Notes: generated from the letters alone by a model not told the origin. 64,000 nucleotides of DNA from an uncultured Bacteroidales bacterium (GCA_963717685.1 OY970346.1:1183695-1247694); one strand, 5' to 3'; counted from the stretch's first letter, positions 24,974 through 53,205 are shown. Translations and numbers: made by a program.

Positions 24974-25070
24974 TTCGATTCCGGCAGGGCCCACTTCAGT
25001 AAATCAACCACTTACGAGGAAAATCAGTAAGTGGTTTTTTATTTTACGCCAGGTTTACGCCAGGTTTTTG
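24974..25070 (+). repeat. att-like unit i: tRNA-3'-end-like stub, hairpin, and 2x ACGCCAGGTTT
   Basis: ttcgattccggcagggcccact .. aaccacttacgaggaaaatcagtaagtggttttttatttt acgccaggttt acgccaggttt. Confidence 0.6.
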
Positions 25071-25092
25071 AGAGATTCGTTTAAATTTAAAC

Positions 25093-25385
25093 GAATTTTG
25101 GAATGAACTATCACACTTTTTATACCTGCATTACCTGTCCCTATTTCTTTCCTAACCTTCATTTATTATCACTGTCTTTCTATAATAAATATTAAATAAA
25201 ATTCCCTAAAAAGTCAACTGATTTCAACTGATTTATCTTTTTCCCCTTCATCGTTCTTAGGAATTTATTTAACTTGTATTGGATAAAAGAAGGTCATTCG
25301 TCAGACACACACAATAGATCGATATTAGAGAGGTTTTGATAAGGTTTTTCTCCTGTGACTGACGGGGCGGAAGCATACCTGAAGA
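25093..25385 (-). repeat. Repeat D, copy D2 (inverted relative to D1)
   Basis: The reverse complement aligns with 575-870 at roughly 85% over the first 140 nt. Confidence 0.65.
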
Positions 25386-25448
25386 GAAGAAAAAAGAACA
25401 AAGAAGATAGATCTATGATATATATGATTATTATTAACTTCAAAAATT

Positions 25449-25892
25449 ATGAGAGCGTGCATTTTATTTGTGGGTTTTATTATAGCATTTGCATCTTGTA
25501 ATAAAGATGACAATAATGATTCTACCAAGGTTTATAATGATTCAAAAGGCACTTCGCTTAGTATTTCATTTTCTAAATGGTTTATATCTACATATAATGA
25601 TTCAGCAGGTGGTTTTTTTGCTCTGAATTTGATAGTTTCTGGCTCAACCAATGCGGATAGGATAACTGTGGAAACTTATAATGGACTAACCCAATGGAAA
25701 GAGCTTATTGGTGAACATGATGTTTTATTAGATTCAAACAAGAGTTTTAAAAAAGATACTATTGGTATTGCATTTGTATATTATTCAGGTACCCAACCAA
25801 CTGGAGCATTTGCCACTAATACTGTAATTACTGCTTATAAAGGGTTAGATACATTAGCGGTTACATTAAATAGTGGGACATTGAACTATTGA
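25449..25892 (+). CDS. Hypothetical lipoprotein (147 aa)
   Basis: Lipobox IIAFASCNK. Confidence 0.55.
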   Translation: MRACILFVGFIIAFASCNKDDNNDSTKVYNDSKGTSLSISFSKWFISTYNDSAGGFFALNLIVSGSTNADRITVETYNGLTQWKELIGEHDVLLDSNKSFKKDTIGIAFVYYSGTQPTGAFATNTVITAYKGLDTLAVTLNSGTLNY

Positions 25893-26151
25893 TAAATTCA
25901 TGTTGAATTAAACCCCTCTGGCAATATCCTATGGGGATTAGAGTGGTTTTTTTATGCTATGCTCATGTGACTGACGGGGTGGTGCTGTAAGAAGACTATA
26001 CTAAAACCCTGGGATTTGAGAGTTGAATAACTAAGAAAAAAGGTGGTGATTTTATTGAATTACTTTTATCCATTCTGGATGAATAAGATTAATTTTATTT
26101 ATTCAATAAACTAGTTATTAGGCATTTTCTCCTACTCCAAACATAATTACC

Positions 26152-26622
26152 ATGAAAGAAGCATTATCAATCACGAATGAAATTCTCGATCTCATTAAGA
26201 CTTGGGAACCAAAACTTGAATCTTTCCCTGATGAGAAAATCAAAGGACCAAAAAATAATCAAAATAGATCTATAAAAATGATTCTTGGCCATTTGATTGA
26301 TTCAACATCAAATAACATTCATAGAATAATCCATCTACAAAATCTGCCAAGTCCACTTTCCTTTCCAAATTATGCTTCATTGGGAAACAATGACAGGTGG
26401 ATTTCTATTCAGAACTATCAAAACGAAGACTGGTATAATATGATTCAACTTTGGAAGTACTCAAATTTCCACCTTTGTCATATAATTAAGAATGTAGATG
26501 ATGCCAAACTTGAAAATAAGTGGATTGCTGGACCAGACAGATTGATTTCTTTAAAAGAAATGATTATTGACTTTTTAAGACACTTCAAATTGCATCTTTC
26601 CGAGATTAATGATCTTATTTAA
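26152..26622 (+). CDS. DinB-family (DinB_2-like) four-helix-bundle protein
   Basis: ILGHLIDSTSNNIHRIIHLQ and FLRHFKLHLSEI, a His-triad pattern typical of the DinB superfamily. Confidence 0.6.
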   Translation: MKEALSITNEILDLIKTWEPKLESFPDEKIKGPKNNQNRSIKMILGHLIDSTSNNIHRIIHLQNLPSPLSFPNYASLGNNDRWISIQNYQNEDWYNMIQLWKYSNFHLCHIIKNVDDAKLENKWIAGPDRLISLKEMIIDFLRHFKLHLSEINDLI

Positions 26623-26769
26623 TCTCCACATAATCAAGATTTAATATATAATTCTTAAATTAACAACGTCTTATAATACATAAGGCTTCATACGGTGCGT
26701 AGCACCCAGTTATGGAGCCCCGGTTGAACTAAATCCCTTAATCCCTTAATACCATTCTTTTATTAAAAC

Positions 26770-26860
26770 GCTGGTTCGATCCCAGCTGGGCCCACTCTTG
26801 AAAATCAACCACTTACAAGTTTTTTTCGTAAGTGGTTTTTTATTTTACGCCAGGTTTTGG
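26770..26860 (+). repeat. att-like unit ii: T arm plus acceptor fragment, hairpin, and 1x ACGCCAGGTTT
   Basis: gctggttcgatcccagctgggcccactcttgaaaatcaaccacttacaag ttttttt cgtaagtggttttttattttacgccaggttttgg. Confidence 0.7.
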
Positions 26861-27042
26861 ATAAAAATCGGGTGTTTTTGACCTAAAAAATGAGTTGGAA
26901 ATATTCCTCCTCCTACAAGAGCATCATCCAACAAACACTGATGCGGTATAAATACTGTCAATTATCTGTATATTGATACATTATAAAAACAGAATGCCCA
27001 AAAATTTTAAATCTTGGGGCAAATATTTGGAGTTAAGAACCA

Positions 27043-27543: not shown

Positions 27544-27635
27544 ATGATTAAAATTGGTTTTAATAATTAACTGTAAATCAAAGACATTGACTAAATTACG
27601 CAATTATTAAACACAAGTCAATTAATTCTTTATTT

Positions 27636-27740
27636 CACCACAATCACCCCAACCCGGAGTTATGGAGTTATTGTTTTGTTTTGTATGTTCGTTATTATGT
27701 GACCGGTTTTTGAGATGGTCAAAGAAGGACGGATTTTACA
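27636..27740 (-). mobile_element. MITE, partial (M15)
   Basis: .. TGACCGGTTTTTGAGATGGTCAAAGAAGGACGGATTTTACA. The other arm is degraded. Confidence 0.6.
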
Positions 27741-27990
27741 TTATTCATTATTTTTACGATGTTTTAAGGTTCCTGGTGTCAGATTATCTTTTGCCAACTT
27801 TCTCCCCTTCCCATCACCAGAAATAGTAACAGAAGCAACCAGAATCAATCTGGTGACATCTGGTGAATTAGGTCATATTAATTACATGATAAAACATCCA
27901 AGCGGTTTTGGCTTGTTGCTTGGTTTTTGATGGATTTTATTACAATTCGTTTAAATTTAAACGAAAAGGTCGATGGTTTTAACACCACAG
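27741..27990 (-). repeat. Repeat C, copy C4 (abuts M15)
   Basis: Full body plus ATTCGTTTAAATTTAAACGAAAAGGTCG. Confidence 0.7.
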
Positions 27991-28020
27991 TTCTTATAAA
28001 TTAGGGGTAGTAAATTATAG

Positions 28021-28111
28021 CCCATCTGAGCCCACTCCTGAAAATCAACCACTTACGAGGAAAATCAGTAAGTGGTTTTTTATTTTACGCCAGGGTTACG
28101 CTAGGTTTTGG
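28021..28111 (+). repeat. att-like unit iii (diverged stub)
   Basis: cccatctgagcccactcctgaaaatcaaccacttacgagg..gtaagtggttttttattttacgccagggttacgctaggttttgg. Confidence 0.6.
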
Positions 28112-28416
28112 AGTGATTTTGTTTAAATTTAAACAAACATCAACATGAATTAACTTTATTTTAATATGGACTGATCTTAATAAAATCCAACTTGACTTTG
28201 ACTAAATCTTGCCCCGGGAATGGGGTATATTATAGCCACTCGCAAACAAATTATAGCTGTAAGGTTAAAGACTTTCCCTTTTGTACATTTGAGTTATTCT
28301 TCGCAAATTTGATACAACATCATAAGAAATGTGATTTTAGATTACGGATGTTTGATATTAATTTAACTCTAAACCTCATTATCTCACTTTCACATGTCAA
28401 TTAAAAACTTAATAAA

Positions 28417-29825: not shown

Positions 29826-29967
29826 TGGAATAGCTAATGTCCTTAACCACTTTTGGCCTGAATAAAATGACCTCCCAAAACCCGGAGTTAAATCCTTGTT
29901 GTTTTGAATTGTCTGTTCGGTGAAGTCAAACCGGATTTTGAGGTGGCCAATGAGCTAGGCTTTTGCA
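29826..29967 (-). mobile_element. IS21-like MITE, full (M16)
   Basis: TGGAATAGCTAATGTCCTTAACCACTTTTGGCCTGAATAAAATGACCTCCC .. GAGGTGGCCAATGAGCTAGGCTTTTGCA. Confidence 0.75.
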
Positions 29968-29968
29968 A

Positions 29969-31323: not shown

Positions 31324-31346
31324 GTTAATCATATTAATAATCTTGC

Positions 31347-31438
31347 AAAACCCAGCTGTTGAAGAATTGTTGTTTTTTTTTGGATGTTCGGGGAAATCTG
31401 ACCGGATTTTGAGGTGGTCAAAAAAGAACGGATTTTAA
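31347..31438 (-). mobile_element. MITE, partial (M17)
   Basis: .. CTGACCGGATTTTGAGGTGGTCAAAAAAGAACGGATTTTA. Confidence 0.6.
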
Positions 31439-31589: not shown

Positions 31590-31728
31590 TGCAAAAGCCG
31601 GAGAGCTTGACCACATTTGGCCGATAGAAATGCAATTACTATAAATAACTTAGCAACAAGAACATAGTTCCGGCTATGGGTGGTCAATATACTCCGGCTA
31701 AAAGTGGTCAAGGCCATTGGCTTTTCCA
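31590..31728 (+). mobile_element. IS21-like MITE, subfamily 2 (M18), identical to M12
   Basis: 139 bp identical by eye to 21287-21425. The flanks differ. Confidence 0.8.
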
Positions 31729-32408: not shown

Positions 32409-32699
32409 TACAAGCCAGATATAATAGATATTTGTTTATCTGTTTACCTCTGGCCAAAGGGAAATCTTTTTCCCGAAGGAAGTAGATTCGGGTGAAACCC
32501 AGGAAAGTAAATTATTGCAAGAAAAGTATCATTTTGGGGTATCACATTGGTATATATGGATAAATCGGCCATATTGACCACCCTTAATCGTTTTTAAGAG
32601 ACCATGCTTTTCCGGCAGTGAAAGACCACCCCTAAGTTAACCTCCTTTTTTGCTTCATTTTCATCATGATTTTCAGGGTGATTTTACAAAGTTATTTTT

Positions 32700-33455
32700 T
32701 TAGTTTGTTCCTCCAAGTGATATGATTGTTTTCTTAATCTGTTTTCTCATGGATTCACCAGAGAGTTCAATACGGTGTGCCTGGTGTACGATGCGATCCA
32801 GTATAGCATCTGCAATGGTATTTTCTCCGATAATCTCATACCATTGTAAGACCGGGAGTTGTGAGGTGATGATCGTTGACCGTTTACCATGACGGTCTTC
32901 GATAATCTCCATGAGTGAAGAACGACTTTGATTATCAAAGGGCTGTATCCCAAAGTCATCAAGTATTAACAAGTCCTGCTTTTCAATGCGTGCTATTTCT
33001 TTGATATAGGACCCATCAGCTTTCGACATTTTTAGTTTGGCAAAAAGCTTTGTGGTATTGGCATATAAAACTTTATATCCCAGAGTACATGCCTGATTTC
33101 CGATAGCTGAAGCCACAAAGCTTTTCCCGATGCCAGTACTTCCAGTGATAATAATTGTTTCTGACTTATCAATAAAACTACAATCGGCAAAGCGCATGAT
33201 CTGGTTTTTATCAAGGTTCCGGTCGGTTTCAAAGTCGAGGTGCTCAATATCTGCCTTGTAACGAAAACGGGCTTGATTTATGTGCCGTTCAATACGGAGG
33301 TTGTTACGATGGTCCCATTCCGATTCAACCATGAAAGCTACCATCTCATCTGCTGTCATGCTGGCCATGCGACCGTCTTCAAGTGTGGTTTTAAAGGCCG
33401 TAGCCATTCCCTGGAACTTCATTTGTTTAAGTCGCTGTAATGTTTGCTCATTCAT
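32700..33455 (-). CDS. istB: IS21-family helper ATPase IstB
   Basis: Walker A GSTGIGKS and Walker B LLILDDFG, with the typical IstB length. Confidence 0.95.
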   Translation of the reverse strand: MNEQTLQRLKQMKFQGMATAFKTTLEDGRMASMTADEMVAFMVESEWDHRNNLRIERHINQARFRYKADIEHLDFETDRNLDKNQIMRFADCSFIDKSETIIITGSTGIGKSFVASAIGNQACTLGYKVLYANTTKLFAKLKMSKADGSYIKEIARIEKQDLLILDDFGIQPFDNQSRSSLMEIIEDRHGKRSTIITSQLPVLQWYEIIGENTIADAILDRIVHQAHRIELSGESMRKQIKKTIISLGGTN

Positions 33456-33532
33456 AGATTTTTATTTTTAAAAGTTAATAATAGTGTTAATCCAGCCACG
33501 ATCTTCCCGTGACTGGATAACTGATAAATTGA

Positions 33533-35086
33533 CTATTTGTAATATCCTCCCCCACGAACATTGCGATGCCCGGGCATTTTCTTATTGTCATCTTCTGAGT
33601 CGAAAGGTTCCTGGTCAAGTCGTTTTTCTATGATGGTACGGATAGCATTATAACTGAAGTCGCCATAATATAATGCCCTCCGACAGGCTCTATTCAAACG
33701 ATCACTACCAACATGTATAACAAAACTGAGGATTCCCTGGCATGTTTTATAGGCTTGCTCGGGATGTTGCCTTATCTCAAGAATATGGACAATATAATCC
33801 CTGGTATCATCACCAATAAAGGTTGCCCGCTGAATAAACTTCTCCGCGGTCCAGTCGCTTTTAAACTGGTGGTGGGATGCCAGATGATCTTCGTTGGTGG
33901 TGTATCCGTAGAGTTTAAAATTGCGAGTATATGTTGCTATAAGATCATATCGGTAATATATCTCCACCAGGTCAGAAGTGTAAAGTATGGTAACCTTCTT
34001 TCCAATATACCGGTAAGGGACGCTGTAATAATGTTTGTCTTCAGCCAGACATACATGATTGTTTTTCATTACTGTAACTACTTTCTTCCTTTTAGCCTGG
34101 TACCTGTATTGTGGCAGCGGCTGCAGATCCGATTTCTCTATTTCTTCGAACAATTGCCTTCTGCTATAGGGACGGCCGGATAAGAGTTTGTTGTTGTGAT
34201 CCTCAAGTGCTTCCCTGATAGCAGTATTTAAGTCTGTTAAAGAAAAGAAAGTGCGTTGCTTAATCGTGTAAAAAATAGTCCGGTATATTATTTTAACTGC
34301 TCCCTCAACCAGAGCTTTGTGTTTAGGTTTATAGGGACCGGCCGGAAGCGCTGTCATATGATAATGCTCTACAAAATCACGGAACATCTCGTTAAGCGTT
34401 GGTTCGTACCTGTCACTTTTGATTACTGCCGATTTTAAGTTGTCTGTTACTATGGCCAGTGGCATACCACCATAATAATGAAGAGCATTCTCGCAGGAAC
34501 ATATAAAGTCTTCTTTCCTTTGGGTCATAGATGCCTCAACATAGGTAAGCTGGCTGGACCCCAGGATCGCAACAAAGATTTCTACCGGAACCACTTCCCC
34601 TGTTGCCTGATCAACAAAGGACAGCTTATCGCCTGTATAATCTACATACATCTTGTCACCGCTCTTATGCTCCATGTGCATCGAAGAGTTGACCTTCTTG
34701 CTCCATAGATTATAATGTTCATTAAACTGTGTTTTACGATAGCCATCAGGATGTTTTAAAAAATATTGCTCCCACTGTTTTTCCCGTGTCTCCCCTTTGC
34801 GTTTAAGGGCTTTCTCCATACCAGGAAAGAAGGCTATCAGATCTGCTTTGCGCTGATCTGTCGGTACCTCCTGACGGGGCATTGAAAACAAGGCCTCCAT
34901 CTGAGTATCACTGAGTTTATCAATTTCTTCCAGTGTCTTACCCATGGCAGTAAATTGCCGGATATACTTCTTAACCGTGTTTCGTGTAGCTCCTGTGCGG
35001 ATGCTGATCGATTGCTTACTTACACCCTCGGTGTACATCTTTAAAATACTTCTTGCTTTACTCATAATAATTAAATTGTTAGACAT
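33533..35086 (-). CDS. istA: IS21-family transposase IstA
   Basis: N-terminal HTH (RNTVKKYIRQF) and a DDE/rve-like core. 517 aa, located upstream of istB. Confidence 0.95.
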   Translation of the reverse strand: MSNNLIIMSKARSILKMYTEGVSKQSISIRTGATRNTVKKYIRQFTAMGKTLEEIDKLSDTQMEALFSMPRQEVPTDQRKADLIAFFPGMEKALKRKGETREKQWEQYFLKHPDGYRKTQFNEHYNLWSKKVNSSMHMEHKSGDKMYVDYTGDKLSFVDQATGEVVPVEIFVAILGSSQLTYVEASMTQRKEDFICSCENALHYYGGMPLAIVTDNLKSAVIKSDRYEPTLNEMFRDFVEHYHMTALPAGPYKPKHKALVEGAVKIIYRTIFYTIKQRTFFSLTDLNTAIREALEDHNNKLLSGRPYSRRQLFEEIEKSDLQPLPQYRYQAKRKKVVTVMKNNHVCLAEDKHYYSVPYRYIGKKVTILYTSDLVEIYYRYDLIATYTRNFKLYGYTTNEDHLASHHQFKSDWTAEKFIQRATFIGDDTRDYIVHILEIRQHPEQAYKTCQGILSFVIHVGSDRLNRACRRALYYGDFSYNAIRTIIEKRLDQEPFDSEDDNKKMPGHRNVRGGGYYK

Positions 35087-35257
35087 GAATGATTGGTATT
35101 AATAATACCATCAACGTTAATCATTCATCCTAATAAATCATGATAAAAAAGCAATCCGGATGGGGTGGTCTCTTTACTCCGGTTTTGGGTGGTCAATTTC
35201 CTCCGGTTAAGGGTGGTCAGTTTGCTCCGGCGAGGGGGTGGTCTTTTTGCTCCGGTC

Positions 35258-35569
35258 TCAGGTGATCATTTTGACCGTTTTTTCCAATATGTCCCCTTCG
35301 CAAGCATAACAAAACACTGTTTTACCATTTTTTTGCCTAATAGGGGTAAGCTCAATGAAATTACCAGATAAAGGAATTCCAATTTCCTCTTTAAATTCTC
35401 TTATCGCTGCAGCTAAGGGACCTTCTTCTTCAGTAAATTCTCCTTTTGGTATAGACCAGCAATGCAAATCTTTTTTAACCCAGAAAGGTCCTCCTGGATG
35501 TACTAAAAGTACTTCTAACTTGGAATGAGTTAATCGATATAAGAGAATACCTGCACTTTTCTTTTCCAT
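35258..35569 (-). CDS. NUDIX hydrolase whose 3' end abuts or is replaced by the IS21 terminus
   Basis: Perfect Nudix box GEFTEEEGPLAAAIREFKEEIGI. The last ~9 codons (LEKTVKMIT*) are IS21 end sequence, and the protein is short for its family. Confidence 0.75.
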   Translation of the reverse strand: MEKKSAGILLYRLTHSKLEVLLVHPGGPFWVKKDLHCWSIPKGEFTEEEGPLAAAIREFKEEIGIPLSGNFIELTPIRQKNGKTVFCYACEGDILEKTVKMIT

Positions 35570-35593
35570 ATAGGATGATATGAACTGTTCGTG

Positions 35594-36043
35594 TTATGTC
35601 TTCAATTCCCATGTTTGAAGTTCAATTATGTTACCCTCAGGATCTTTTGCATAAGTAAATACTAAGCTTCCTTTCGCATAGTCTTTTTTTACAATTTTAC
35701 CAAGTTTTGAGCCACCATTCAGAATCATTTTTTCAAGAATCATTTCTATATTGTCTACTGAAAAGGCAATATGGCCAAAACCTTCTCTGTTAGCCATGGG
35801 ATAAGGTTTGTCTTCATTTTCTTGATATTGGAAAATTTCTAAAGTCGGGCCATCTTTATCAAAGCCAGGTAAAAGTAGATGAATACCTTGTAAAGCGGCA
35901 TTTTTAACACCTGTGCCGTTTTCCAGCCAAACTCCCTTGAGATTTCTTTCCGGAGGTATTGGTTTGCATTCAAAGACTTTAATATAGAATTCTGATAGAA
36001 GCCTCCAATTTTTAGCAATGATGTTAGTATGAACAAATTTCAT
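35594..36043 (-). CDS. VOC-family (glyoxalase/bleomycin-resistance fold) protein
   Basis: FGHIAFSVDNIEMILEKM and AKDPEGNIIELQ. Confidence 0.8.
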   Translation of the reverse strand: MKFVHTNIIAKNWRLLSEFYIKVFECKPIPPERNLKGVWLENGTGVKNAALQGIHLLLPGFDKDGPTLEIFQYQENEDKPYPMANREGFGHIAFSVDNIEMILEKMILNGGSKLGKIVKKDYAKGSLVFTYAKDPEGNIIELQTWELKT

Positions 36044-36144
36044 AGGAATGATGTTTTAAAGTATTTTCTCAATACCAGAATCATAAGCTGTTAATCGTGG
36101 TTAAATAAGTAAGTTTAAATTACTTCTGTAATATGTCAAAGTTA

Positions 36145-36284
36145 CAGCTAAAGCCGGACACTTTGACCACATTTAGCCAGTCATTTTGTATTTAGGATAC
36201 AATTCTATATACCAATTATTTAGCTTCTTTCATTAATGGTCAATTTTCTCCAACGAGAGTTAGTCAGAGACACTGGCATTTCCA
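36145..36284 (+). mobile_element. IS21-like MITE, subfamily 2 (M19)
   Basis: GCTAAAGCCGGACACTTTGACCACATTTAGCCAGTC .. TGGTCAATTTTCTCCAACGAGAGTTAGTCAG .. CTGGCATTTCCA. Confidence 0.7.
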
Positions 36285-36648
36285 CTCAAACATCTGATTC
36301 AAAAAATGTTGATTTGGATGTATTAACTCAAGAATGGAGACAAGCAAGTGATAGGATTAAAGAAATTGGAGTATAAGAAGCTGAACAACCCAAAGGTGAG
36401 CTCGAAATTAAGAAAATAAGGATGCTTGATGATGGATCGCTGAGTGAAGAAATGGGCCCAGGATTTTTCTATGAAGAATACAGCTTGGCATTGGATATTG
36501 TAAACATCAGGAGAAGTCAGAAGAACTGATCACATCTGTCCGGAGGTAAGCATACAACTCTATATAACTTAAATTGCTATTTTAACATATTCTGGTAATA
36601 TTTTGATTTACCTTTACATTGACTTTTAAACTTAAATTAAATAGAGCT

Positions 36649-37131: not shown

Positions 37132-37424
37132 TAGATTATAAGCGAGTTTCACACCTGAAATTATAACTTAACAAAGCATTTGGTGGAGCGTACTTCACTG
37201 AATGCTTACGTCCTGAGAAAATCAAGTCTCCTCAGGGGAAAAAATCAAACGGCAACAACAGAACACCTGACATATCTAACTGATTCCTATTATATCGAAG
37301 ACAGAATACGAGAAAAAATTTTTGCTCAGAGATTTTAAAAAATCCCAAGATCGGAAAAGTGAAAGAAAAATTTCCAGCAAAATATTAGGAAAATCCTGAC
37401 TTTGATTGGTCTATTAAGAAAGGT

Positions 37425-37605
37425 GAAAACGACCACCGACCTTTTCGTTTAAATTTAAACGGATGATCATAGAATTCAATAAAAAAACCGGCTGAATTGG
37501 CCGGTTTGAAGTGTTTGAATCAGGATTTTAAAATCAGTTAATGTCTTTGAATATTATCAGGGAGTATTTTTAATTATGATTAACCAGGGACTTTGCTTTT
37601 CATAG
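37425..37605 (+). repeat. Repeat B, copy B4 (inner end of the right inverted repeat)
   Basis: Same blocks as B1. Confidence 0.7.
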
Positions 37606-38234
37606 CATTGTCCGTGTTAGCGGGCAGTATTTATCTTCGTTTTAAATGTTTTAATCCAATACTACCTTTCTAAATTAATAATTTTAATTTCTTCTCCATC
37701 AGGAGTCAGTTCTGATAATCTTAAAGTTACACTATTTTCCGTCAGACCTGCAATAACATAAGTACCCATGCTTGCGCCGCCCAGAAACTCAGTGCCATCA
37801 ACGTAAAATGCAATGATATTTATTTGATTGCTTGACACAAATGTATATGTACACGTGTCTAAACTAGTTCCTTCCTTTACATAAAGATTACCCTCTGATG
37901 TAAAATTGTAATAATCTGTCTGGACTCCGATGTAGTTTGAATGAATATCTGTCAGGAGTGGCCCAACGCCTTGCAACGAAGTCGAGTCATTTATAATATT
38001 CCATTTCCCAATAAGTGAAGAATCATTTACAGGGGATTTTTTACAAAAACTCGAGGCAAAGACTATAAATACTAAGATGATTGCGATAATATATTTCATT
38101 TGGCTTCGCATTTTATAGCATAGAAGAATTGAAAATAAAAGTAGGACTAAATTTGATCGTATTTTCATAATCTATCTTTTTAGATTATTTATTGAGATGT
38201 AAAAACTCTCAAAAAGGTTGCATCGGAGAATGCC
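37430..38234 (-). repeat. Right arm of the inverted repeat (core 37606-38234)
   Basis: See the left arm. Confidence 0.8.
37662..38111 (-). CDS. Small lipoprotein (149 aa), copy in the right inverted repeat
   Basis: Identical to 21680-22129. The track's 19-codon upstream extension exists only in this copy, because the left copy has TAA where this one has a sense codon. Confidence 0.65.
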   Translation of the reverse strand: MRSQMKYIIAIILVFIVFASSFCKKSPVNDSSLIGKWNIINDSTSLQGVGPLLTDIHSNYIGVQTDYYNFTSEGNLYVKEGTSLDTCTYTFVSSNQINIIAFYVDGTEFLGGASMGTYVIAGLTENSVTLRLSELTPDGEEIKIINLER

Positions 38235-38235
38235 C

Positions 38236-38304
38236 GCTAGGGGAGAACTTGGCAAAAGATGATCTGTCACCAGGAACCTTTAAAATAGTAGAAATAATGA
38301 ATAA
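38236..38304 (+). repeat. Repeat C, 3' fragment C5 (abuts M20; cut off by the right inverted repeat)
   Basis: GGGGAGAACTTGGCAAAAGATGATCTGTCACCAGGAACC... Confidence 0.55.
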
Positions 38305-38446
38305 TGTAAAATCCGTCCATCTTTGACCACCTCAAAATCCGGTCATCCTTCACCGAACATTCAAAACAAAACAACAATTCTTTAACTCCCCTTTAAAGGG
38401 TGGTCAATTAATTCCTTCCAATTAGGGTCAGATTGTCTGGTTTTTG
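38305..38446 (+). mobile_element. IS21-like MITE (M20)
   Basis: TGTAAAATCCGTCCATCTTTGACCACCTCAAAATCCGGTCA .. GGGTGGTCAATTAATTCC .. GGGTCAGATTGTCTGG. Confidence 0.7.
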
Positions 38447-44865: not shown

Positions 44866-45040
44866 GAAAGAAAGGTTGGTGTTAATTACCACCAACCTTT
44901 GTTTAAATTTAAACGGATTGTCATAGAATCTTCAAAAACCTAGCGACAAGCCAAAACCACTTGAACAGGTTGTAATGTAATTATTATGACACGATACCAC
45001 CAGATGTCACCAGATTGAATCTGGTTGCTTCTGGGACTAT
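44866..45040 (+). repeat. Repeat C, copy C6, 5' part (interrupted by IS256)
   Basis: Head hairpin and palindrome, ending ..GGTTGCTTCTGGGACTAT at the IS256 junction. Confidence 0.75.
44871..44905 (+). terminator. Hairpin plus T-rich tail 3' of the S8/cohesin gene pair (this is the head of a repeat-C copy)
   Basis: aaaggttggtg-ttaatta-ccaccaaccttt followed by gttta. Confidence 0.5.
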
Positions 45041-46410
45041 AGTAGTGTTCCCTTTTGTGTGTCTGGGTAGGTTCGGTACCCTGTAAGAATTTTGCATATC
45101 TAAAATACATTTTATTTATTTAACAGATCAAGAAATGAATCTTTTTCATCCGGGAAGAGATCCTTATCGACATCCACTGCCGGCAGAGCACGGTAATAAG
45201 CCGTTTTGTCCATCGCCGTTTTCGACATTAAAACGATGACTGACTCTTCACTGGGCATTGCTCCCCGCATCCTTAAAACCCTTCTGAAATCCCTCTGCAG
45301 GCGTTCTATCCAATTGGTTGTGTATATCATCGACTGGATCCGGTAATGATATTTAAGGTATGTAAAATAATACCTGTAAAAGGGATCTTCCCCCATCTTC
45401 TTAATGCTCCTGTAATCATTACCCCATTTTCTGCAAAGTTCCTGCCATGCAATCCATCCTTTCTCCGAAGTATAGGTTCTGTCTCCCGTCCTGAATACAT
45501 CTCTAAGATCATTGGCCAGTTCACCTTTGTCTCCATGTCTTACCCGGTTAAACATATTACGCTTGAGATGGGTGACGCACTTTTGCAGATCGCTGCCGGG
45601 ATATATCTCGGCTAATGCGTCCTCAAGATATTTTATGCCATCAGCAACTGTTAATCCTATTCTTTCAACTCCACGCTCCTGCAGAGACATAAACATCTCT
45701 TTCCAGCCTTCAGCGCTCTCTGAAGGACGATTAAAGATACCAAGCACATCTCTGGTTTTGTCTTCCTTCACGGCCATTACAACATAAAATGCTTCATTTT
45801 CCACGCTTCGCTTGCGATGGACCTTGATATGAATGGCATCTACAAAAACTATCGGGTAATAGTTCTCAAGCGACCTGGTAAGCCACTGTTCCACATCAGC
45901 TCTCAGATACTCGATCATACGGCTAATGCTGGCTTTACTCTATTGCTTACCGTATACCTCACCAAATACCTCACCTACCTGTGACTGGGTCAAGCCCTTA
46001 CAGTATAAACTGCTGGCCAGCTGCTCACATTCTACTTCCTGGTCTTTTAAAAGTGCCAGAATAGTAGGATGAAAATTACCGTATCTGTCTCTTGGTATCC
46101 TGAACTCAAGTATCCTGCCCTGTCCGTAACTCTTACCCTGACGAAAACCGTTGCCTTTGTTCCCCCGGCTCCCGTCAAGAAAATCCCGGCGCTCGGCCTT
46201 CATCATGCTTTCAATCATCAGTTCCATTAAGTCTTGCAACCCTCTTTCACGGTTTAAATGGTTGACAAATACATCCGAAAGTTGTTCCTTTGTGAAATCC
46301 ATTGGTCTTCCTGGTTTTTAGTTTTACATTTTTTGTTTGCCTTTGCAAAACTAATCCAGGGAGACCTTTTTTAAAATACCTATGTGAGACACACTTTTTT
46401 GAACACTATC
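45041..46410 (-). mobile_element. IS256-family insertion sequence (1370 bp) inserted into a repeat-C copy
   Basis: Imperfect IRs AGTAGTGTTCCCTTTTGTGTGTCT and GATAGTGTTCAAAAAAGTGTGTCT (rc). An 8-bp direct duplication GGGACTAT lies at 45033-45040 and 46411-46418. Repeat-C sequence resumes on both sides. Confidence 0.85.
45112..46302 (-). pseudogene. IS256-family (Mutator-type) transposase with an in-frame TAG
   Basis: ORFs 45940-46302 and 45112-45918 share a frame, with TAG at 45940-45942 (..EVYGKQ*SKASISRMIEYLR..). Motifs are YPIVFVDAIHIKV, VADGIKYLEDA and TTNWIERLQ. Confidence 0.85.
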
Positions 46411-46510
46411 GGGACTATTTCTTGTGATGGGAAGGGGAGAAGCTTGGCAAAGGATGATCTTTCACCAGGAACCTTAAAACATAGTAGAAATAATGAATAA
46501 TGTAAAATCC
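46411..46510 (+). repeat. Repeat C, copy C6, 3' part (after IS256; abuts M21)
   Basis: Resumes GGGACTATTTCTTGTGATGGGAAGGGGAGAAGCTTGGCAAAGG... Confidence 0.75.
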
Positions 46511-46621
46511 GTCCTTTTGTGACCACTTCAAAAGACGATCAGATTCCACATAACATACACTATAAAACAACAAGGATTTAACTCCCCTGTAATGGGTGGT
46601 TTGCAAAAACCGTGACAAGCC
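46511..46621 (+). mobile_element. MITE, right arm degraded (M21)
   Basis: TGTAAAATCCGTCCTTTTGTGACCACTTCAAAAG .. ATGGGTGGTTTGC. Confidence 0.6.
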
Positions 46622-47571: not shown

Positions 47572-47586
47572 AATGCGGTGAGTTTA

Positions 47587-48792: not shown

Positions 48793-49163
48793 GACAGATT
48801 GCAGTTACGGGATGGTTATTTCATTAAGCGTTGTTTTAGAATTAGGACACTCTTTGACAGATTATAACAGTCGATTTTCATTATTGCATGAATCATGCTT
48901 TTTTATATTCCTTTTCTTTATAATTAATTTTAGGTGTGGTATGTAATCAAATTTACATCTTTATTTTAAATCATTAAACGGACTCTTTTTATCATAGCAG
49001 AAATTCCGTATCAATATACTATAGTGCTGTAAAGATTTATTTTTCGACAGAATCAATATCATTTTAAAAAGATTTATTTGACTTTGCCTTTTAACTGGAG
49101 TAACTTGCTTCATATTTCTGAATTACAGGTATTTATTTTATCTATTAACCAAATCTCAATCAA

Positions 49164-49661: not shown

Positions 49662-49841
49662 TCAGTTTAAATAAATCAATGTGCTTTGAAAGATATTATT
49701 TTGGGGCATTTTGTTTTTATAAAGTATTAATATACTGATACCTGACTATATTTTTACCAAATCAGATATTATTGGATGTTGCTCTTGTAGGGGAGGAGTA
49801 TTACAAACTTATTTTTTAGGTCAAAAACACCCCATTTTTCT

Positions 49842-49932
49842 CCAAAACCTGGCGTAAACCTGGCGTGAAATAAAAAACCACTTACGAAAAAAACTTGTAA
49901 GTGGTTGATATTCAAGAGTGGGCCCAATTGGG
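49842..49932 (-). repeat. att-like unit iv (inverted relative to units i-iii)
   Basis: The reverse complement reads caattgggcccactcttgaatatcaaccacttacaag..gtaagtggttttttatttcacgccaggtttacgccaggttttgg. Confidence 0.7.
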
Positions 49933-49965
49933 AATTAATCTACTCCCAAGATATATAAGTACTAT

Positions 49966-50222
49966 AGTGTCAATTACCACCAACCTTTGTTTAAATTTAA
50001 ACGAATTGAAATAAAATCCATCCAACATCCGTCAAAAACCTGGCAACAAGTCAAAACCACTTATAAGGGTTGTCATTTAATTTTTAAGATATAATATCAC
50101 CAGATGTCACCAGGTTGATTCTGGTTGCTTCTGGGGTAGTTTCTAAGGATGGGAAGGGGAGATGCTTGGCAAAAGATAATCTGTCACAAGAACTCTTAAA
50201 ACATAGTAGAAATAATGAATAA
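49966..50222 (+). repeat. Repeat C, copy C7 (abuts M22)
   Basis: Full head and body. Confidence 0.7.
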
Positions 50223-50338
50223 TGTAAAATCCGTCCTTCCTTGACCACCTGAGAATCCGGTCATCCTTCACAGAACATACATCATAAACAACAATTTTTT
50301 AACTCCGGATTTGGGTGGTCAATTTGTCCGTTTTTCCA
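50223..50338 (+). mobile_element. MITE, short right arm (M22)
   Basis: TGTAAAATCCGTCCTTCCTTGACCACCTGAGAATCCGGTCA .. TGGGTGGTCAATTTGTCCGTTTTTCCA. Confidence 0.7.
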
Positions 50339-50372
50339 TCTATATTTGATTATATTGTATTGATGATCAAAG

Positions 50373-52523
50373 TCAGACCTTTAATCCAACGATTAAAACA
50401 TCATCAGTCTGTTCAATAGTATTTTTCCAGCTAAAAAATGCTGATTCAAGACTCTTTTTTTGTTCATTCATCGTCTTGCCGGCAATTGATATTAATAAAT
50501 CCTGAAAAGGTTTATATTTAAATTTCTTACAAAATTCACCACCGAATTGATCAGCAAATCCATCTGAGAAGAGATAGAGATTATCTCCTTTAATAAGTTG
50601 AAATTCATTTAAATTAAACTTATCCATCTTTTCATAAATAGAAATTGGCATTTTATCAGCTTTAATTTCAATCAAATTGTCATTTCTAATGATATAGAGT
50701 GGATTATTAGCTCCGGAAAACTGAAGAAAATTGTTATTTAAATTAATGCTTATTAATGCTATATCCATACCATCTTTTTGTTCTCCCGCTCTGCCCTCCT
50801 GTTTTAAGGTAGTCATGATCTCTTTTCTCAATTTTCTTAGAATAACATCAGGTTGAATAATATATTCTTTGTTAACAATTTCTCGTAAAAACGAAACGCC
50901 AAGCATACTCATAAATGCACCAGGAACCCCGTGTCCGGTACAATCAGCAACAGCTACTATCAGTGAATCCTCAATGTCCGCCCACCAATAAAAATCACCG
51001 CTTACCCTGTCTCTTGGTTGCAACATAATGAAATGATCCGAAAGATATTTGTCAAGAAGCGATTCATCAGGGAAAATTGATGACTGTATCCGTTTTGCAT
51101 AATCTATACTTTGAGAAACCTCGTGGTGGATCATCTCAATATGTTCCTTTTGTTGCTGGAGAATCACTTTCTTATCTTCAATCTCCTTTTTCTGCGCTGC
51201 AAGAAGTATATTGGATTTTTTCTTTATATAATAGCTTCTGATAACAAAAGATAAACCGAAAATCAACAGAATAATTCCTCCGACTGCAAAATTCCTTACA
51301 AGTTTCTGCTGTCTAATCTCTGTTTTCACCTTTTCATCTTTCTGCTTCTGAATTAATTCCTGTGCCTTTAATTCGGATGAAAACTCGTTTTTCATTTCGA
51401 CCTGGATAATTTTTTGTTTGTTTTCATCTATATTCAGGCTATCTGAGTACGCATTAAATATTCTGTAATATTTGAAAGCCGATTGGAAATCTCCAAGACC
51501 CTCATATGCGTTCGTAAGGTTTTCAGCAGCATTCTTGAGCATCTCCTTAGATCTTTCTTGTTTTGCTATCTGGTAACTTTCCTCACTATATTTAAGAGAC
51601 TTGTTGAATTGTTTCAATTTATTATAAGTAGCCCCGATATTGCTGAAATAACACGAAATACCTTCCTTAAAACCCACTCGTTTCGCAGCAACTACAGCTT
51701 TTAAATAATATTCCAAAGCCTTCTGATAATTACTCTGTTGAAAATAAACTTCCCCGATATTATTGTAACATTCCCCAAGCATTTCAATATTATTGATACT
51801 GTCAAATATTTTTTCTGATTTGTGAAGATATTCAAGAGATTTTAGGTAATTTTTTAACGATGAATAAGTACCTGAAATTTCAAAAAAACACCTTGCGATT
51901 TCACCTTTACCAAATCTGATATCAAGTCTTTCTTTTCCAATAAGTTTTAGATAATCTAATGCTTTTAAATTATATTCAAGTTCTTTCTGGTGATCTCCGG
52001 TTATTGAGTAAATATTTGCAACATTCATTAATGATCGAACCAGACCAAAGGTATCAGATATCTCCTGAAACAAATTGAGTGACTTCAGGTAATTTTCCGT
52101 AGCTTCAGGGTAGAAATTTTGAGTGTAATAAACATTTCCTATGTCTACAAGGCCGTAAGCTTCATCTCGTTTATCTCCGCTTTCACGAGATAATACCAAT
52201 TGCTTGTTGTACGCTGATATTGCAGCCGCATACATCTTAAAATCTAGATATGCACCACCCATATAATAATACATCATTCTAAGGCTCTTCTTATCTTTGT
52301 CCCCGATTATCCTGAACATTCTATCAATGAATGCATTAGCTGAATCCTCTGACAATCTTAGATATTCATGCAAAAGCTCGTAGACTATTGCTCCCTGGGC
52401 TTTTTTATCTTTTTCATTTCTAAATGCGATCTGGAGACTGTCAATAACAGAATGGCTCTGTGGAAAAACTGAGGCAGAGATTAAAATAAAATATAAAACC
52501 CCCAGAACCCTTTTCATATTCAT
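50373..52523 (-). CDS. TPR-repeat, single-TM, SpoIIE/PP2C-type protein phosphatase
   Basis: N-terminal signal, about 8 TPR-like repeats, the TM segment FAVGGIILLIFGLSFVI, and a PP2C core (GDFYWW..AVADCTGHGVPGAFMS..FSDGFADQFGG..TDDVLIVGLKV). Confidence 0.85.
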   Translation of the reverse strand: MNMKRVLGVLYFILISASVFPQSHSVIDSLQIAFRNEKDKKAQGAIVYELLHEYLRLSEDSANAFIDRMFRIIGDKDKKSLRMMYYYMGGAYLDFKMYAAAISAYNKQLVLSRESGDKRDEAYGLVDIGNVYYTQNFYPEATENYLKSLNLFQEISDTFGLVRSLMNVANIYSITGDHQKELEYNLKALDYLKLIGKERLDIRFGKGEIARCFFEISGTYSSLKNYLKSLEYLHKSEKIFDSINNIEMLGECYNNIGEVYFQQSNYQKALEYYLKAVVAAKRVGFKEGISCYFSNIGATYNKLKQFNKSLKYSEESYQIAKQERSKEMLKNAAENLTNAYEGLGDFQSAFKYYRIFNAYSDSLNIDENKQKIIQVEMKNEFSSELKAQELIQKQKDEKVKTEIRQQKLVRNFAVGGIILLIFGLSFVIRSYYIKKKSNILLAAQKKEIEDKKVILQQQKEHIEMIHHEVSQSIDYAKRIQSSIFPDESLLDKYLSDHFIMLQPRDRVSGDFYWWADIEDSLIVAVADCTGHGVPGAFMSMLGVSFLREIVNKEYIIQPDVILRKLRKEIMTTLKQEGRAGEQKDGMDIALISINLNNNFLQFSGANNPLYIIRNDNLIEIKADKMPISIYEKMDKFNLNEFQLIKGDNLYLFSDGFADQFGGEFCKKFKYKPFQDLLISIAGKTMNEQKKSLESAFFSWKNTIEQTDDVLIVGLKV

Positions 52524-52669
52524 ATAATAATAAAAATACTAAACCCCGAACTATAATATTTGTTACAATTACTATCGGGTCAAAATTTATAGTTAATATT
52601 CTCTTTTACACGGGAGTAGTGCAAATGAGATGAGAACAAATAAGAAGGTTTTTATTAGCTGTAAGTCAA

Positions 52670-52849
52670 TTATTGATTTTTGTCAATTTTATATATATAA
52701 ATTGCCAAAAGCACAGCAAAGATAGCTGTTGTAAAGCCTGAAGCAACAAGCATTATAGTTCCTCCAGGCCATTGCATCCTTTTAAATAAGGAGCCAAGAA
52801 TTATCAGGTCCGCACTTACTGCACCAAAAATGTAAACAGCTTTTTTCAT
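52670..52849 (-). CDS. Small two-TM membrane protein (59 aa, below the track cutoff)
   Basis: Own translation is MKKAVYIFGAVSADLIILGSLFKRMQWPGGTIMLVASGFTTAIFAVLLAIYIYKIDKNQ. The K-x-MQWPGG motif resembles the HWPG motif of small Bacteroidota membrane proteins. Confidence 0.45.
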   Translation of the reverse strand: MKKAVYIFGAVSADLIILGSLFKRMQWPGGTIMLVASGFTTAIFAVLLAIYIYKIDKNQ

Positions 52850-53086
52850 AATGGTAAGATTTAAAATATTAAAACTATAATAAAACTCGAAGTCTCTTTC
52901 AAATTCTATTAATTGAATAAATGAACCCTGAAATTATTTTACTTCAAATGATTAATTCTAAGTAATGTAAATATAATAGTTTTCTGTTTAATTAAAAGGC
53001 ATTTAAGTCTATTTGTTGAAAGATTCAATAGAGAAAGAATTTCCCTTTAAAGTTTTAAGGGATTAACATAACTTTCTTCCAAAAGT

Positions 53087-53205
53087 CCAAAACCTGGCGT
53101 AAACCTGGCGTGAAATAAAAAACCACCTACAAAAAAAACTTGTAAGTGGTTGATTTTCAAGAGTGGGCCCAGCTGGGATCGAACCAGCGACCCCCTGATT
53201 ATGAG
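53087..53205 (-). repeat. att-like unit v: longest tRNA fragment (anticodon loop to 3' end), hairpin, and 2x ACGCCAGGTTT
   Basis: See the tRNA fragment feature. Immediately left of the integrase. Confidence 0.75.
53164..53205 (-). other. 3' fragment of a tRNA (CAT anticodon loop, T arm, acceptor 3' strand), not an intact gene; candidate att core
   Basis: The minus strand reads ctcataa-tcagg-gggtc-gctgg-ttcgatc-ccagc-tgggccc-a. Upstream there is no matching 5' acceptor strand or D arm. Confidence 0.75.

What the first reader, a model, noticed from the sequence alone, without database searches (positions are those of the whole stretch)
24974..53205. Five to six diverged copies of a tRNA-3'-end plus hairpin plus ACGCCAGGTTT unit, in both orientations
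Units at 24974, 26770 and 28021 are in plus orientation, and units at 49842 and 53087 are in minus orientation. All share the hairpin AACCACTTAC..GTAAGTGGTTTTTT and one or two ACGCCAGGTTT motifs. They retain progressively shorter stubs of the same tRNA 3' end: 42 nt, 25 nt, about 14 nt and about 9 nt. A sixth, more diverged unit lies near 15679-15775. This looks like the scars of repeated integration and decay events at one tRNA locus, later rearranged by inversion, since the plus copies face the minus copies across ~22 kb. Alternatively it is a mobile att-carrying cassette. If the scar reading is right, the whole 25-53 kb stretch is old island material.
Basis: partly seen in the sequence, partly recalled or inferred. 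Interest (0 to 1): 0.55.

Follow-up and report, generated by a model that had tools for sequence, protein, structure and literature searches.

The report
Leftover tRNA-Met integration sites in island
The repeated units are copies of the attachment site that mobile elements leave each time they insert into one methionine tRNA gene of an uncultured Bacteroidales bacterium, so this is a well-known way of building a genomic island, seen here in a new integrase family.

Summary
There are five units, each a tRNA 3' piece, a terminator hairpin and one or two ACGCCAGGTTT repeats, plus a diverged sixth, and nothing else like them in the window. The tRNA is tRNA-Met(CAT). The longest stub (53209-53163, minus strand) starts in the anticodon loop. 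It lies 142 nt downstream of a tyrosine integrase (53352-54560) and an excisionase (54573-54785), and that spacer holds two more CGCCAGG repeats.

Two public contigs show the complete form: intact tRNA-Met plus unit, an 8 or 15.6 kb element, xis-int, then stub plus unit. Of 56 public units, 42 follow an intact or partial tRNA-Met, so a generic REP or terminator repeat is excluded.

The best reading is serial integration at one tRNA-Met, each newcomer pushing older site copies inward. Inversion is plausible but unproven. The three plus-strand units lie inside a 15 kb segment bracketed by 0.8 kb inverted repeats (99% identical over 655 nt), so the breakpoints need not be at the units. The sixth unit derives from another tRNA.

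The tRNA gene is outside the window, and the closest relative has none within 10 kb of int. This is a known kind of structure in a new integrase family. ACGCCAGGTTT as an Int arm-type site is inferred, not shown.

The parts
53086..53209 (-). Unit 5. Holds a 44-47 nt tRNA-Met 3' half starting in the anticodon loop (53209/53206-53163), the terminator hairpin (53151-53121) and two ACGCCAGGTTT repeats (53111-53101 and 53100-53090).
   Evidence: It is 95.7% identical over 47 nt to the 3' part of the tRNA-Met gene of L001 and 97.6% over 124 nt to the tRNA-Met plus unit of L043.
53210..53351 (-). Spacer between the int stop codon and the stub, read as the P arm. It carries two more repeats, GGCTAGGTTTT and CCGCCAGGTTT (53328-53307), in the same orientation as the downstream pair.
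   Evidence: The same pair sits at the same place in 7 public loci that carry an int homologue.
53352..54560 (-). Tyrosine integrase, 402 aa.
   Evidence: Pfam Phage_integrase 6.9e-12 and Phage_int_SAM_5 9.4e-9. R235, R353, H376 and Y385 are invariant in 32 homologues. The AF2 model has an N-terminal three-stranded sheet plus helix (residues 3-49), and full-length lambda Int aligns over about 400 columns.
54573..54785 (-). Excisionase-family HTH protein, 70 aa. The palindrome GTTTAAATTTAAAC (54565-54578) spans the 12 nt gap between this gene and the int start codon and overlaps this gene's last two codons (its stop codon included).
   Evidence: TIGR01764 at 35.8 bits, cutoff 28.8. HTH_17. Palindrome position.
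54786..57148 (-). Small genes that travel with xis-int: orf108, two ClpS-like genes (one broken), orf146 and orf141.
   Evidence: 81-95% nt identity to L058/L059 over 57148-53086; homology stops at 57148.
49840..49934 (-). Unit 4. Holds a stub of about 17 nt (TTCCCAATTGGGCCCAC), the hairpin and two repeats. A conserved 100 nt extension follows at 49743-49844.
24974..25071 (+). Unit 1. Holds a 21 nt stub starting in the T loop, the hairpin and two repeats, followed by the palindrome at 25079.
   Evidence: Its downstream flank is what follows the intact tRNA-Met in L043 and the int-side unit in L058, at about 85% identity.
26769..26857 (+). Unit 2. Holds a 27 nt stub (T arm plus acceptor), the hairpin and one repeat. 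The conserved extension follows at 26858-26960.
   Evidence: It is 97% identical to unit 5 over 89 nt.
28019..28112 (+). Unit 3. Holds a stub of about 17 nt (AGCCCATCTGAGCCCAC), the hairpin and two degenerate repeats, followed by the palindrome at 28121.
15672..15775 (+). Unit 6. It has the same architecture (tRNA 3' half, hairpin, ATGCCAGGTTT) but derives from a different tRNA.
   Evidence: E 3e-8. In L024 the same hairpin and repeat follow a tRNA-Asn.
27645..27987 (-). Copy of the ~420 nt long repeat (LR) that abuts the stub of unit 3.
49964..50325 (+). Copy of the same long repeat (LR), abutting the stub of unit 4 in the same relative orientation.
   Evidence: The region 27645-28113 matches 49840-50317 at 78% over 484 nt.
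21556..22373 (+). Left arm of the inverted repeat that brackets units 1-3.
   Evidence: 819 nt at 96%, of which 655 nt at 99%.
37417..38235 (-). Right arm of the same inverted repeat.

Best explanation
Each unit is a copy of the attachment-site repeat made when an integrative element inserts into a tRNA-Met(CAT) gene.

How it works. An element of this family carries xis and int at one end. Next to int it carries an attP site made of, in order: two CGCCAGG repeats; its own copy of the tRNA 3' half from the anticodon loop onward; its own terminator hairpin; and two more ACGCCAGGTTT repeats. Strand exchange takes place in the anticodon-loop/variable region. The element's copy then completes the tRNA. 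The old 3' half, with its old terminator and old repeats, ends up beside int at the far end of the element. Each further arrival pushes earlier copies deeper into the island, where the tRNA part, no longer needed, decays or is trimmed.

In this window. Unit 5 is the copy beside a still intact xis-int module. Units 4, 1, 2 and 3 are older copies. The DNA between them is old cargo: accessory genes, one IS21-family element, one IS256-family remnant, and many miniature transposon-derived repeats (MITEs). The three plus-strand units most simply got their orientation by one homologous inversion between the 0.8 kb inverted repeats at 21.6-22.4 and 37.4-38.2 kb.

What is shown and what is inferred. 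Shown: the anatomy, the link to tRNA-Met, the linkage to int and xis, and the complete elements in comparators. Inferred: that ACGCCAGGTTT is the arm-type site for Int (or a site for Xis), that the short-stub units arose the same way, and the inversion.
For: 1. tRNA identity. An intact tRNA-Met(CAT) is followed directly by the same hairpin and repeats in L003 and 11 metagenome loci.

2. Recombinase linkage. Int and Xis lie beside unit 5. The layout xis-int, two repeats, long stub, hairpin, two repeats recurs in L002, L008, L020, L029, L034, L038 and L055, with int 45-80% identical.

3. Complete elements.
- Contig Ga0364860_10032 has tRNA-Met plus unit at about 28.6 kb, xis-int-stub plus unit at about 44.2 kb, and a short-stub unit at about 46.95 kb. 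The two flanking copies are near-identical for about 150 nt from the anticodon loop.
- L062 has methionine-salvage genes, tRNA-Met plus unit, a 7.8 kb element, xis-int, two repeats, then stub plus unit. Its two copies differ by a compensated T-stem pair and by their hairpins. The crossover therefore lies 5' of the T stem, and the element supplies its own tRNA end, terminator and repeats.

4. The hairpin is a real terminator. 40 of 49 distinct units fold at -11.8 to -17.8 kcal/mol, with at least five different stem sequences, each followed by T6.

5. Arm-type site idea. The repeat pairs flank the core on both sides in one orientation with an 11-12 nt period. Int has an extra N-terminal sheet-plus-helix domain and aligns full-length to lambda Int. 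IntDOT-type Bacteroides integrases are known to have an arm-binding N domain and arm-type sites (PMC2817482).

6. Serial arrival. The closest relative, L058 (int 97% aa), has int, stub, unit, then a flank like that of unit 1. One gene further on it has the long repeat (LR), a unit like unit 4, and the same extension as in the window, but with different cargo between the two units.

7. Inversion. Units 1-3 lie inside 22.4-37.4 kb, bracketed by 99% identical inverted repeats. In L058 and L043 the unit-1-type flank has the same orientation as int or the tRNA, opposite to the window.

8. Precedent. Serial integration that leaves partial tRNAs scattered through an island is documented for tycheposons (10.1101/2020.12.28.424599).
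Against: - No tRNA-Met gene is in the window, so the left end of the int-carrying element is unseen.
- In the closest relative (L058/L059) there is no tRNA within 10 kb upstream of int, and groES-groEL lie 7.5 kb upstream. The int module may therefore be cut off from its tRNA.
- No integrase accompanies the older units.
- The pre-existing side of the site also carries the repeat pair, including next to serine-recombinase elements, which need no arm sites. The repeats could therefore be a host feature.
- In the older copies the tRNA part is far more decayed than the hairpin and repeats. This needs selection, gene conversion or a second crossover class to explain.
- Pfam Arm-DNA-bind_5 is only sub-threshold.
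- No comparator crosses an inversion breakpoint.
Confidence: 0.78

Rival explanations
1. The units are a generic REP-like or terminator repeat scattered through the genome that merely resembles a tRNA end.
For: The hairpin is a plain intrinsic terminator. Eleven of 56 public units have no recognisable stub. The window is full of other intergenic repeats.
Against: Of 56 public units, 12 follow an intact tRNA-Met, 18 follow a long tRNA-Met stub and 12 a short one, and 1 follows tRNA-Asn. Eleven long stubs have a recombinase within 900 nt. In the window the repeat occurs only in the units and beside int. The many other gene ends in the window lack it.
Confidence: 0.03
2. The short-stub units did not arise by separate integrations. 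They spread passively as part of a larger repeat, the 420 nt long repeat (LR) fused to a unit. The spread would be by segmental duplication, by homologous recombination among repeats, or by transposition driven by the IS21-family transposase.
For: Units 3 and 4 are each fused to a copy of the long repeat in the same relative orientation, 78% identical over 484 nt. The same repeat lies next to units in L004, L039 and L058. The repeat ends in IS21-type terminal repeats, and the derived MITEs are active: L025 is 99% identical to the window but has a MITE inserted after unit 2. Units fall into two within-genome subgroups.
Against: The same short stub boundary (about 17-18 nt) recurs in unrelated contexts without the long repeat (L002b, L034b, L053-L055). 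The long repeat also occurs five times in the window without a unit.
Confidence: 0.12
3. The resident int with its adjacent complete site works as a capture platform, like an integron. Circular cassettes that each carry one unit are inserted at the int-side site and can be excised again.
For: The site beside int has both repeat pairs and a full core, so it looks like attP rather than a recombined junction. No tRNA lies within 10 kb upstream of int in the closest relative. Cargo between unit 5 and unit 4 differs between the window and L058 while both boundaries are kept. Small one- or two-gene segments lie between units 1, 2 and 3.
Against: Two comparators show ordinary elements bounded by the tRNA gene. 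A junction between two tandem elements also looks like attP. The integrase is far below the integron-integrase cut-off (26 bits against 220). Cassette genes have no common orientation. Homologous recombination in the conserved flanks explains the cargo swaps equally well.
Confidence: 0.07

Closest known systems
Tandem (serially accreted) genomic islands at tRNA genes, for example tycheposon islands of Prochlorococcus (10.1101/2020.12.28.424599)
   Same: Site-specific insertion into a tRNA gene. The element is flanked by a full tRNA and a partial tRNA. Newcomers push older elements inward. Partial tRNAs and degraded elements are scattered through the island. Inversions between repeated cargo occur.
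   Different: The host here is Bacteroidales, not cyanobacteria, and the integrase family is different. The duplicated segment is long (about 130-150 nt), reaching about 95 nt past the tRNA to include a terminator and a repeat pair. Tycheposon hallmark genes were not looked for.
Bacteroides integrative elements with arm-binding integrases: CTnDOT IntDOT (PMC2817482), and NBU1/NBU2, which insert at tRNA-Leu and tRNA-Ser 3' ends (own knowledge)
   Same: A Bacteroidota tyrosine integrase with a SAM_5-type core-binding domain and an extra N-terminal domain. A small excisionase. Short direct repeats on both sides of the core.
   Different: The target is tRNA-Met with the crossover in the anticodon-loop region. 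No mobilisation or transfer genes were seen in the 10.8 kb of the element that lies in the window. No detectable sequence match to any solved integrase. Binding of Int to the repeats is untested.
Lambda attP architecture (arm-type sites P1/P2 and P'1-3 around a core, plus tandem Xis sites; own knowledge and PMC2817482)
   Same: Repeats with about one helical turn spacing on both arms. Int has three domains. Xis is encoded next to int.
   Different: The same repeat pair is also present on the pre-existing chromosomal side, which lambda attB lacks.
Integrons
   Same: An integrase beside a recombination site, followed by short gene segments separated by a repeated structured site.
   Different: There is no IntI-type integrase, no attC-like folded site, no common cassette orientation and no evident common promoter. 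The repeated site is a tRNA end plus a terminator.

Membership tests
tRNA-targeting integrative element with a tyrosine integrase | Tyrosine recombinase with catalytic R..R..H..Y | tested here: met
   Pfam PF00589 and PF13102. R235, R353, H376 and Y385 are invariant in 32 homologues. Foldseek matches Tn1549 Int, XerA and lambda Int at E 2e-9 to 1e-7.
tRNA-targeting integrative element with a tyrosine integrase | Element bounded by a complete tRNA gene on one side and a direct repeat of its 3' part on the other | tested here: inconclusive
   Met in comparators L015/L034 and L062. In the window only the stub end is present. The closest relative has no tRNA within 10 kb upstream of int.
tRNA-targeting integrative element with a tyrosine integrase | Excisionase gene adjacent to int | tested here: met
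   TIGR01764 at 35.8 bits against a cutoff of 28.8. xis-int adjacency is conserved in 7 loci.
tRNA-targeting integrative element with a tyrosine integrase | Excision and integration actually occur (circle and empty-site junctions) | not testable with these tools
   No read data are available. L043 looks like an empty-site allele relative to L058, 93% over 221 nt, which is indirect.
Heteronomous (arm-binding) integrase system of the lambda/IntDOT type | N-terminal arm-binding domain | tested here: inconclusive
   The AF2 model has a three-stranded sheet plus helix at residues 3-49, pLDDT about 80-88. Full-length lambda Int aligns over about 400 columns, against about 330 for N-truncated integrases. 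Pfam Arm-DNA-bind_5 reaches only E 0.08 and 1.9 in two homologues.
Heteronomous (arm-binding) integrase system of the lambda/IntDOT type | Arm-type sites on both sides of the core that are bound by Int | not testable with these tools
   Repeat pairs are present on both arms in 8 loci. Binding is untested. The same pair also lies next to serine-recombinase elements.
Integron | IntI-type integrase | tested here: not met
   The NCBIfam XerA/integron-integrase model scores 26 bits against a cutoff of 220.
Integron | Co-oriented cassettes, each ending in an attC site | tested here: not met
   Genes between units lie on both strands. The units are a tRNA end plus a terminator.
REP/BIME or MITE | Many dispersed copies without link to a specific gene; terminal inverted repeats or a cognate transposase | tested here: not met
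   42 of 56 public units (75%; 78% of the 54 that can be judged) are tied to tRNA-Met. The units have no terminal inverted repeats. The genome-wide count in the source genome could not be made.
Tycheposon | Hallmark tyrosine-recombinase clade and replication-module genes | not tested
   Only the island-building behaviour was compared.

The most novel reading that the evidence does not exclude
The intact xis-int module with its complete two-armed site is not the end of an ordinary element. It would be a resident capture platform that inserts and swaps small circular gene cassettes, each carrying one tRNA-Met-end unit. The 420 nt long repeat (LR) and the GTTTAAATTTAAAC palindrome would serve as further recombination or control sites. 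That would make it a tRNA-derived, integron-like cassette system in Bacteroidota.
Probability: 0.07. Interest if true: 0.7.

Novelty: new member of a known kind. Interest (0 to 1): 0.3.

Why it matters
The finding gives a clean, checkable example of how a flexible island grows at one tRNA gene in uncultured peat and freshwater Bacteroidales.

It also defines a large integrase family: 374 homologues, nearly all 402 aa. For this family the target (the tRNA-Met anticodon loop), the attP layout and a candidate 11 nt protein-binding repeat can now be stated. That helps delimit mobile elements in metagenome-assembled genomes, where islands are usually mis-assembled.

Large serine recombinases use the same tRNA-Met site, so this gene is a shared hot spot.

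None of this changes current understanding of how islands form.

Tried and rejected
- Rfam at gathering thresholds found nothing in the window. The units and the other repeats are not a known RNA family.
- RNAalifold on 21 units failed to recover the hairpin, because stems of different length were misaligned. I replaced it with single-sequence folds.
- The simple terminator scan flagged only unit 5, because the other loops exceed its 8 nt limit.
- The viral-contig scan for the unit found nothing.
- I could not reach beyond the window. The source is a 3.5 Mb contig, but only 2-7 kb Logan contigs were returned.
- I tried to test the inversion through relatives. The gene in the inverted repeat is not on record in three start variants. 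Contigs holding the DUF4386 gene are too short to cross the repeat.
- GC skew is weakly positive over about 20-44 kb and negative outside. It follows gene orientation and does not match the candidate breakpoints, so I did not use it.
- I first took the 428 aa, 426 aa and 401 aa ORFs next to units for integrases. They are an unknown protein, a beta-lactamase-family protein and an MFS transporter.
- I considered that the palindrome is a site for the small resolvase seen in L058. The window has no resolvase homologue.
- I asked whether the long repeat (LR) and the MITEs occur only downstream of tRNA-Met. There were 0 hits in 39.8 kb upstream against 4 in 59.2 kb downstream, too few to decide.

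Full report
**Observation**

The motif ACGCCAGGTTT (at most one mismatch) occurs 11 times in the window, against 0.54 expected by chance. The hairpin is exact in four places. ARAGORN finds no tRNA gene in the window.

Reading the sequence and aligning the units confirms five units of one design. Each has a piece of a tRNA 3' end, about 11 nt of spacer, a 10-13 bp hairpin followed by T6, ATTTYA, and one or two ACGCCAGGTTT repeats. A sequence profile made from 54 such units finds exactly these five in the window (E 2e-27 to 3e-20), plus the sixth at 15708-15772 (E 3e-8). The only other hits at E<=0.05 are weak (E 0.003-0.04): opposite-strand matches to the near-palindromic hairpins of three units, and one inside the long repeat described below. 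All hairpins fold at -12.5 to -15.9 kcal/mol.

**Which tRNA**

A scan of one genome per species for a 23 nt core of the unit returned five Bacteroidota metagenome-assembled genomes. In L003 an intact tRNA-Met(CAT) gene runs straight into the same hairpin and two repeats.

A metagenome scan returned 50 more loci. I classified all 56 public units:
- 12 follow an intact tRNA-Met.
- 1 follows a tRNA-Asn.
- 18 follow a long tRNA-Met stub that begins in the anticodon loop.
- 12 follow a short or decayed stub.
- 11 have no recognisable stub.
- 2 are cut by contig ends.

Across these loci the stem of the hairpin changes on both sides while pairing is kept. There are at least five stem versions, and 40 of 49 distinct units fold at -11.8 to -17.8 kcal/mol. 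The hairpin is therefore a working terminator of the tRNA gene.

**Recombinases**

The ORF at 53352-54560 (minus strand) is a tyrosine integrase (Phage_integrase and Phage_int_SAM_5). The 70 aa ORF at 54573-54785 is an excisionase-family protein (TIGR01764 above its cut-off).

Read on the minus strand, the order is: xis; int; a 142 nt spacer with two CGCCAGG-type repeats; a 44-47 nt tRNA-Met 3' half starting at the anticodon loop; the hairpin; and two ACGCCAGGTTT repeats. The same order, with int 45-80% identical, is seen in L002, L008, L020, L029, L034, L038 and L055.

Six other long stubs lie next to a large serine recombinase instead (L004, L011, L028, L033, L041, L046). Two unrelated recombinase families therefore use the same part of tRNA-Met.

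The integrase family is large. There are 374 homologues at E<=1e-20, and nearly all of the top 120 are 402 aa long.

**Complete elements elsewhere**

Contig Ga0364860_10032 has, all on one strand:
- tRNA-Met plus unit at about 28.6 kb
- xis-int-stub plus unit at about 44.2 kb
- a short-stub unit at about 46.95 kb

The first two copies are near-identical for about 150 nt, from the anticodon loop to about 95 nt past the tRNA end, and then diverge.

L062 has methionine-salvage genes, then tRNA-Met (3230-3308) plus hairpin and two repeats, then a 7.8 kb element, then xis-int, two repeats, stub, a different hairpin and two repeats. In L062 the two copies differ by a compensated T-stem pair (GTTGG/CCAAC against GCTGG/CCAGC) and by their hairpins. 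Two conclusions follow. The crossover lies 5' of the T stem, in the 19 nt that are identical (ACTCATAATCAGGGGGTCG). And the element brings its own tRNA end, terminator and repeats, while the former ones are displaced to the int side.

**What the repeats may do**

Pairs of 11-12 nt-spaced repeats lie on both sides of the core, all in one orientation.

The AF2 model of the integrase (mean pLDDT 79) has an extra N-terminal three-stranded sheet plus helix. Full-length lambda Int aligns over about 400 columns, whereas N-truncated integrases align over about 330. Bacteroides IntDOT is known to have an arm-binding N domain and arm-type sites (PMC2817482).

I therefore read ACGCCAGGTTT as an arm-type Int site, or possibly an Xis site. 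This is inference, for three reasons. Pfam's arm-binding model is only sub-threshold. No binding data exist. And the displaced side also carries the pair, even next to serine-recombinase elements. The pair may therefore be a standing feature of this tRNA locus, either native or left by earlier elements.

**The array in the window**

Unit 5 lies beside the intact int module. Units 4, 1, 2 and 3 have shorter stubs (17-27 nt) and no integrase.

The closest relative, L058 (int 97% aa, 95% nt over 55388-53086), has the following order: int, stub, unit, a flank like that of unit 1, one gene, the long repeat, a unit like unit 4, and the same 100 nt extension as in the window. The cargo between the two units differs from the window. 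L043 looks like the corresponding allele with an intact tRNA-Met.

This fits serial arrival and cargo turnover between conserved boundaries, as described for tycheposon islands (10.1101/2020.12.28.424599).

The DNA from 0.5 to 53 kb is accessory in character. It holds a beta-lactamase-family protein, an MFS transporter, hydrolases, a subtilase, type IX secretion system (T9SS) proteins, many ORFs without a family, an IS21-family element and an IS256-family remnant. Repeats cover 19% of the window, and almost all of them lie below 53.2 kb.

**Orientation**

Units 1-3 (plus strand) lie inside 22.4-37.4 kb. That segment is bracketed by inverted repeats at 21556-22373 and 37417-38235 (819 nt at 96%, of which 655 nt at 99%). 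One homologous flip would put all five units on the minus strand in the order 5, 4, 1, 2, 3. In L058 and L043 the unit-1-type flank has the same orientation as int or the tRNA, unlike in the window. This supports a rearrangement but does not show where it happened. Attempts to find a comparator that crosses a breakpoint failed.

**Caveats**

- The tRNA-Met gene is not in the window.
- In L058/L059 there is none within 10 kb upstream of int, and groES-groEL lie 7.5 kb upstream. The int module may therefore have been separated from its tRNA.
- The short stubs share a boundary in several unrelated loci (L002b, L034b, L053-L055). This may mean a second crossover class rather than decay.
- In older copies the tRNA part is much more diverged than the hairpin and repeats.
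- Units 3 and 4 are fused to the 420 nt long repeat (78% identity over 484 nt), so passive spread of that composite cannot be excluded.
- Unit 6 has the same design but a different tRNA end. In L024 the same hairpin and repeat follow tRNA-Asn.

**Verdict**

This is a tRNA-Met island built by site-specific integration, a known kind of structure. It involves a previously undescribed integrase family and an unusually long duplicated site. It is of interest to specialists in mobile elements of environmental Bacteroidota, but it is not surprising.

Noticed in passing
window 804-1210, 20590-21004, 23399-23659(-), 27645-27987(-), 38248-38431, 44877-46586 (split), 49964-50325: A non-coding repeat of about 420 nt (the long repeat, LR) in 7 copies, 75-86% identical. 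It consists of a hairpin, the palindrome described in the next item, a middle part rich in CACCAGG, and a MITE-like end. It abuts the stubs of units 3 and 4. It also lies near units in L004, L030, L035, L039 and L058. Its function is unknown.
   Followed up: partly
window 843, 1321, 18656, 20631, 22330, 25079, 27949, 28121, 37447, 44901, 49989, 54565: The perfect 14 nt palindrome GTTTAAATTTAAAC occurs 12 times. One copy spans the 12 nt gap between xis and the int start codon. Two copies follow units 1 and 3 directly. A near copy follows the int-side unit in L062. Different sequence modules are joined at it, so it may be a protein-binding or recombination site.
   Followed up: partly
window about 32560-35265: An IS21-family element (IstA at 33533-35086, IstB at 32700-33455) with three or four CCGGAG..GACCACCC terminal repeats at each end. 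It cuts a NUDIX gene (35258-35569) that is full length in L058.
   Followed up: partly
window 15461-15598, 18504-18642, 21287-21425, 31590-31728, 36146-36285; and 3553-3667, 4878-4996, 6007-6118, 9589-9655, 24581-24678, 29884-29967, 31367-31437: Two families of miniature elements (139 nt and about 125 nt) with IS21-type inverted ends. L025 is 99% identical to window 26674-26928 but has the 139 nt element inserted about 70 nt past unit 2, so these elements are or recently were mobile.
   Followed up: partly
window 45112-46302: A frameshifted IS256-family (Mutator) transposase inserted into one copy of the long repeat (LR). The two halves of that copy are at 44877-45037 and 46411-46586.
   Followed up: no
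window 13414-15459: A tandem duplication of a 975 bp segment (98% identical) that holds a 179 aa ORF of unknown family (13837-14376 and 14812-15351).
   Followed up: no
window 35288-36288; L058 2673-3672; L059 2890-3706: A glyoxalase-NUDIX gene pair next to a 139 nt miniature element is 95-97% identical in three relatives but has different neighbours in each. It lies upstream of int in L058/L059 and on the other side of the array in the window.
   Followed up: partly
window 57385-64000: The DNA beyond the conserved int module carries a type I restriction R subunit (59596-62667), a YgjP-like metallopeptidase, a PAD_porph-family protein, and a 388 aa ORF matching only the last third of the candidate defence protein PDC-S68 (E 6.5e-154). 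This part is absent from L058/L059.
   Followed up: partly
L001 5857-6132; L005 about 280-577; L037: A small GIY-YIG-like gene with its own terminator is inserted between an intact tRNA-Met and the displaced tRNA 3' half or unit. This is a third kind of insert at the same tRNA.
   Followed up: no
L004 4710-6194, L011, L028, L033, L041, L046: Large serine recombinases (494 aa; Resolvase plus Recombinase domains) lie beside long tRNA-Met stubs that begin at the same anticodon-loop position as those of the tyrosine integrase elements.
   Followed up: partly
L003 4780-4800: A 21 nt copy of the tRNA-Met anticodon arm (CCTGACTCATAATCAGGGGGG) lies about 25 nt upstream of the intact tRNA-Met gene, on the side opposite to all other stubs.
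   Followed up: no
window 55764-55831 and 57233-57300: A 68 nt direct repeat (84% identical), ATTAGGCAGTTCCGGTTTTTTGC..CTAAGTT, lies upstream of two small genes of the int module. It may be a shared promoter or operator.
   Followed up: no
protein P0003: An integrase 84% identical to the window's is labelled as coming from an Ignavibacteria MAG. This is either cross-phylum transfer or a binning error.
   Followed up: no
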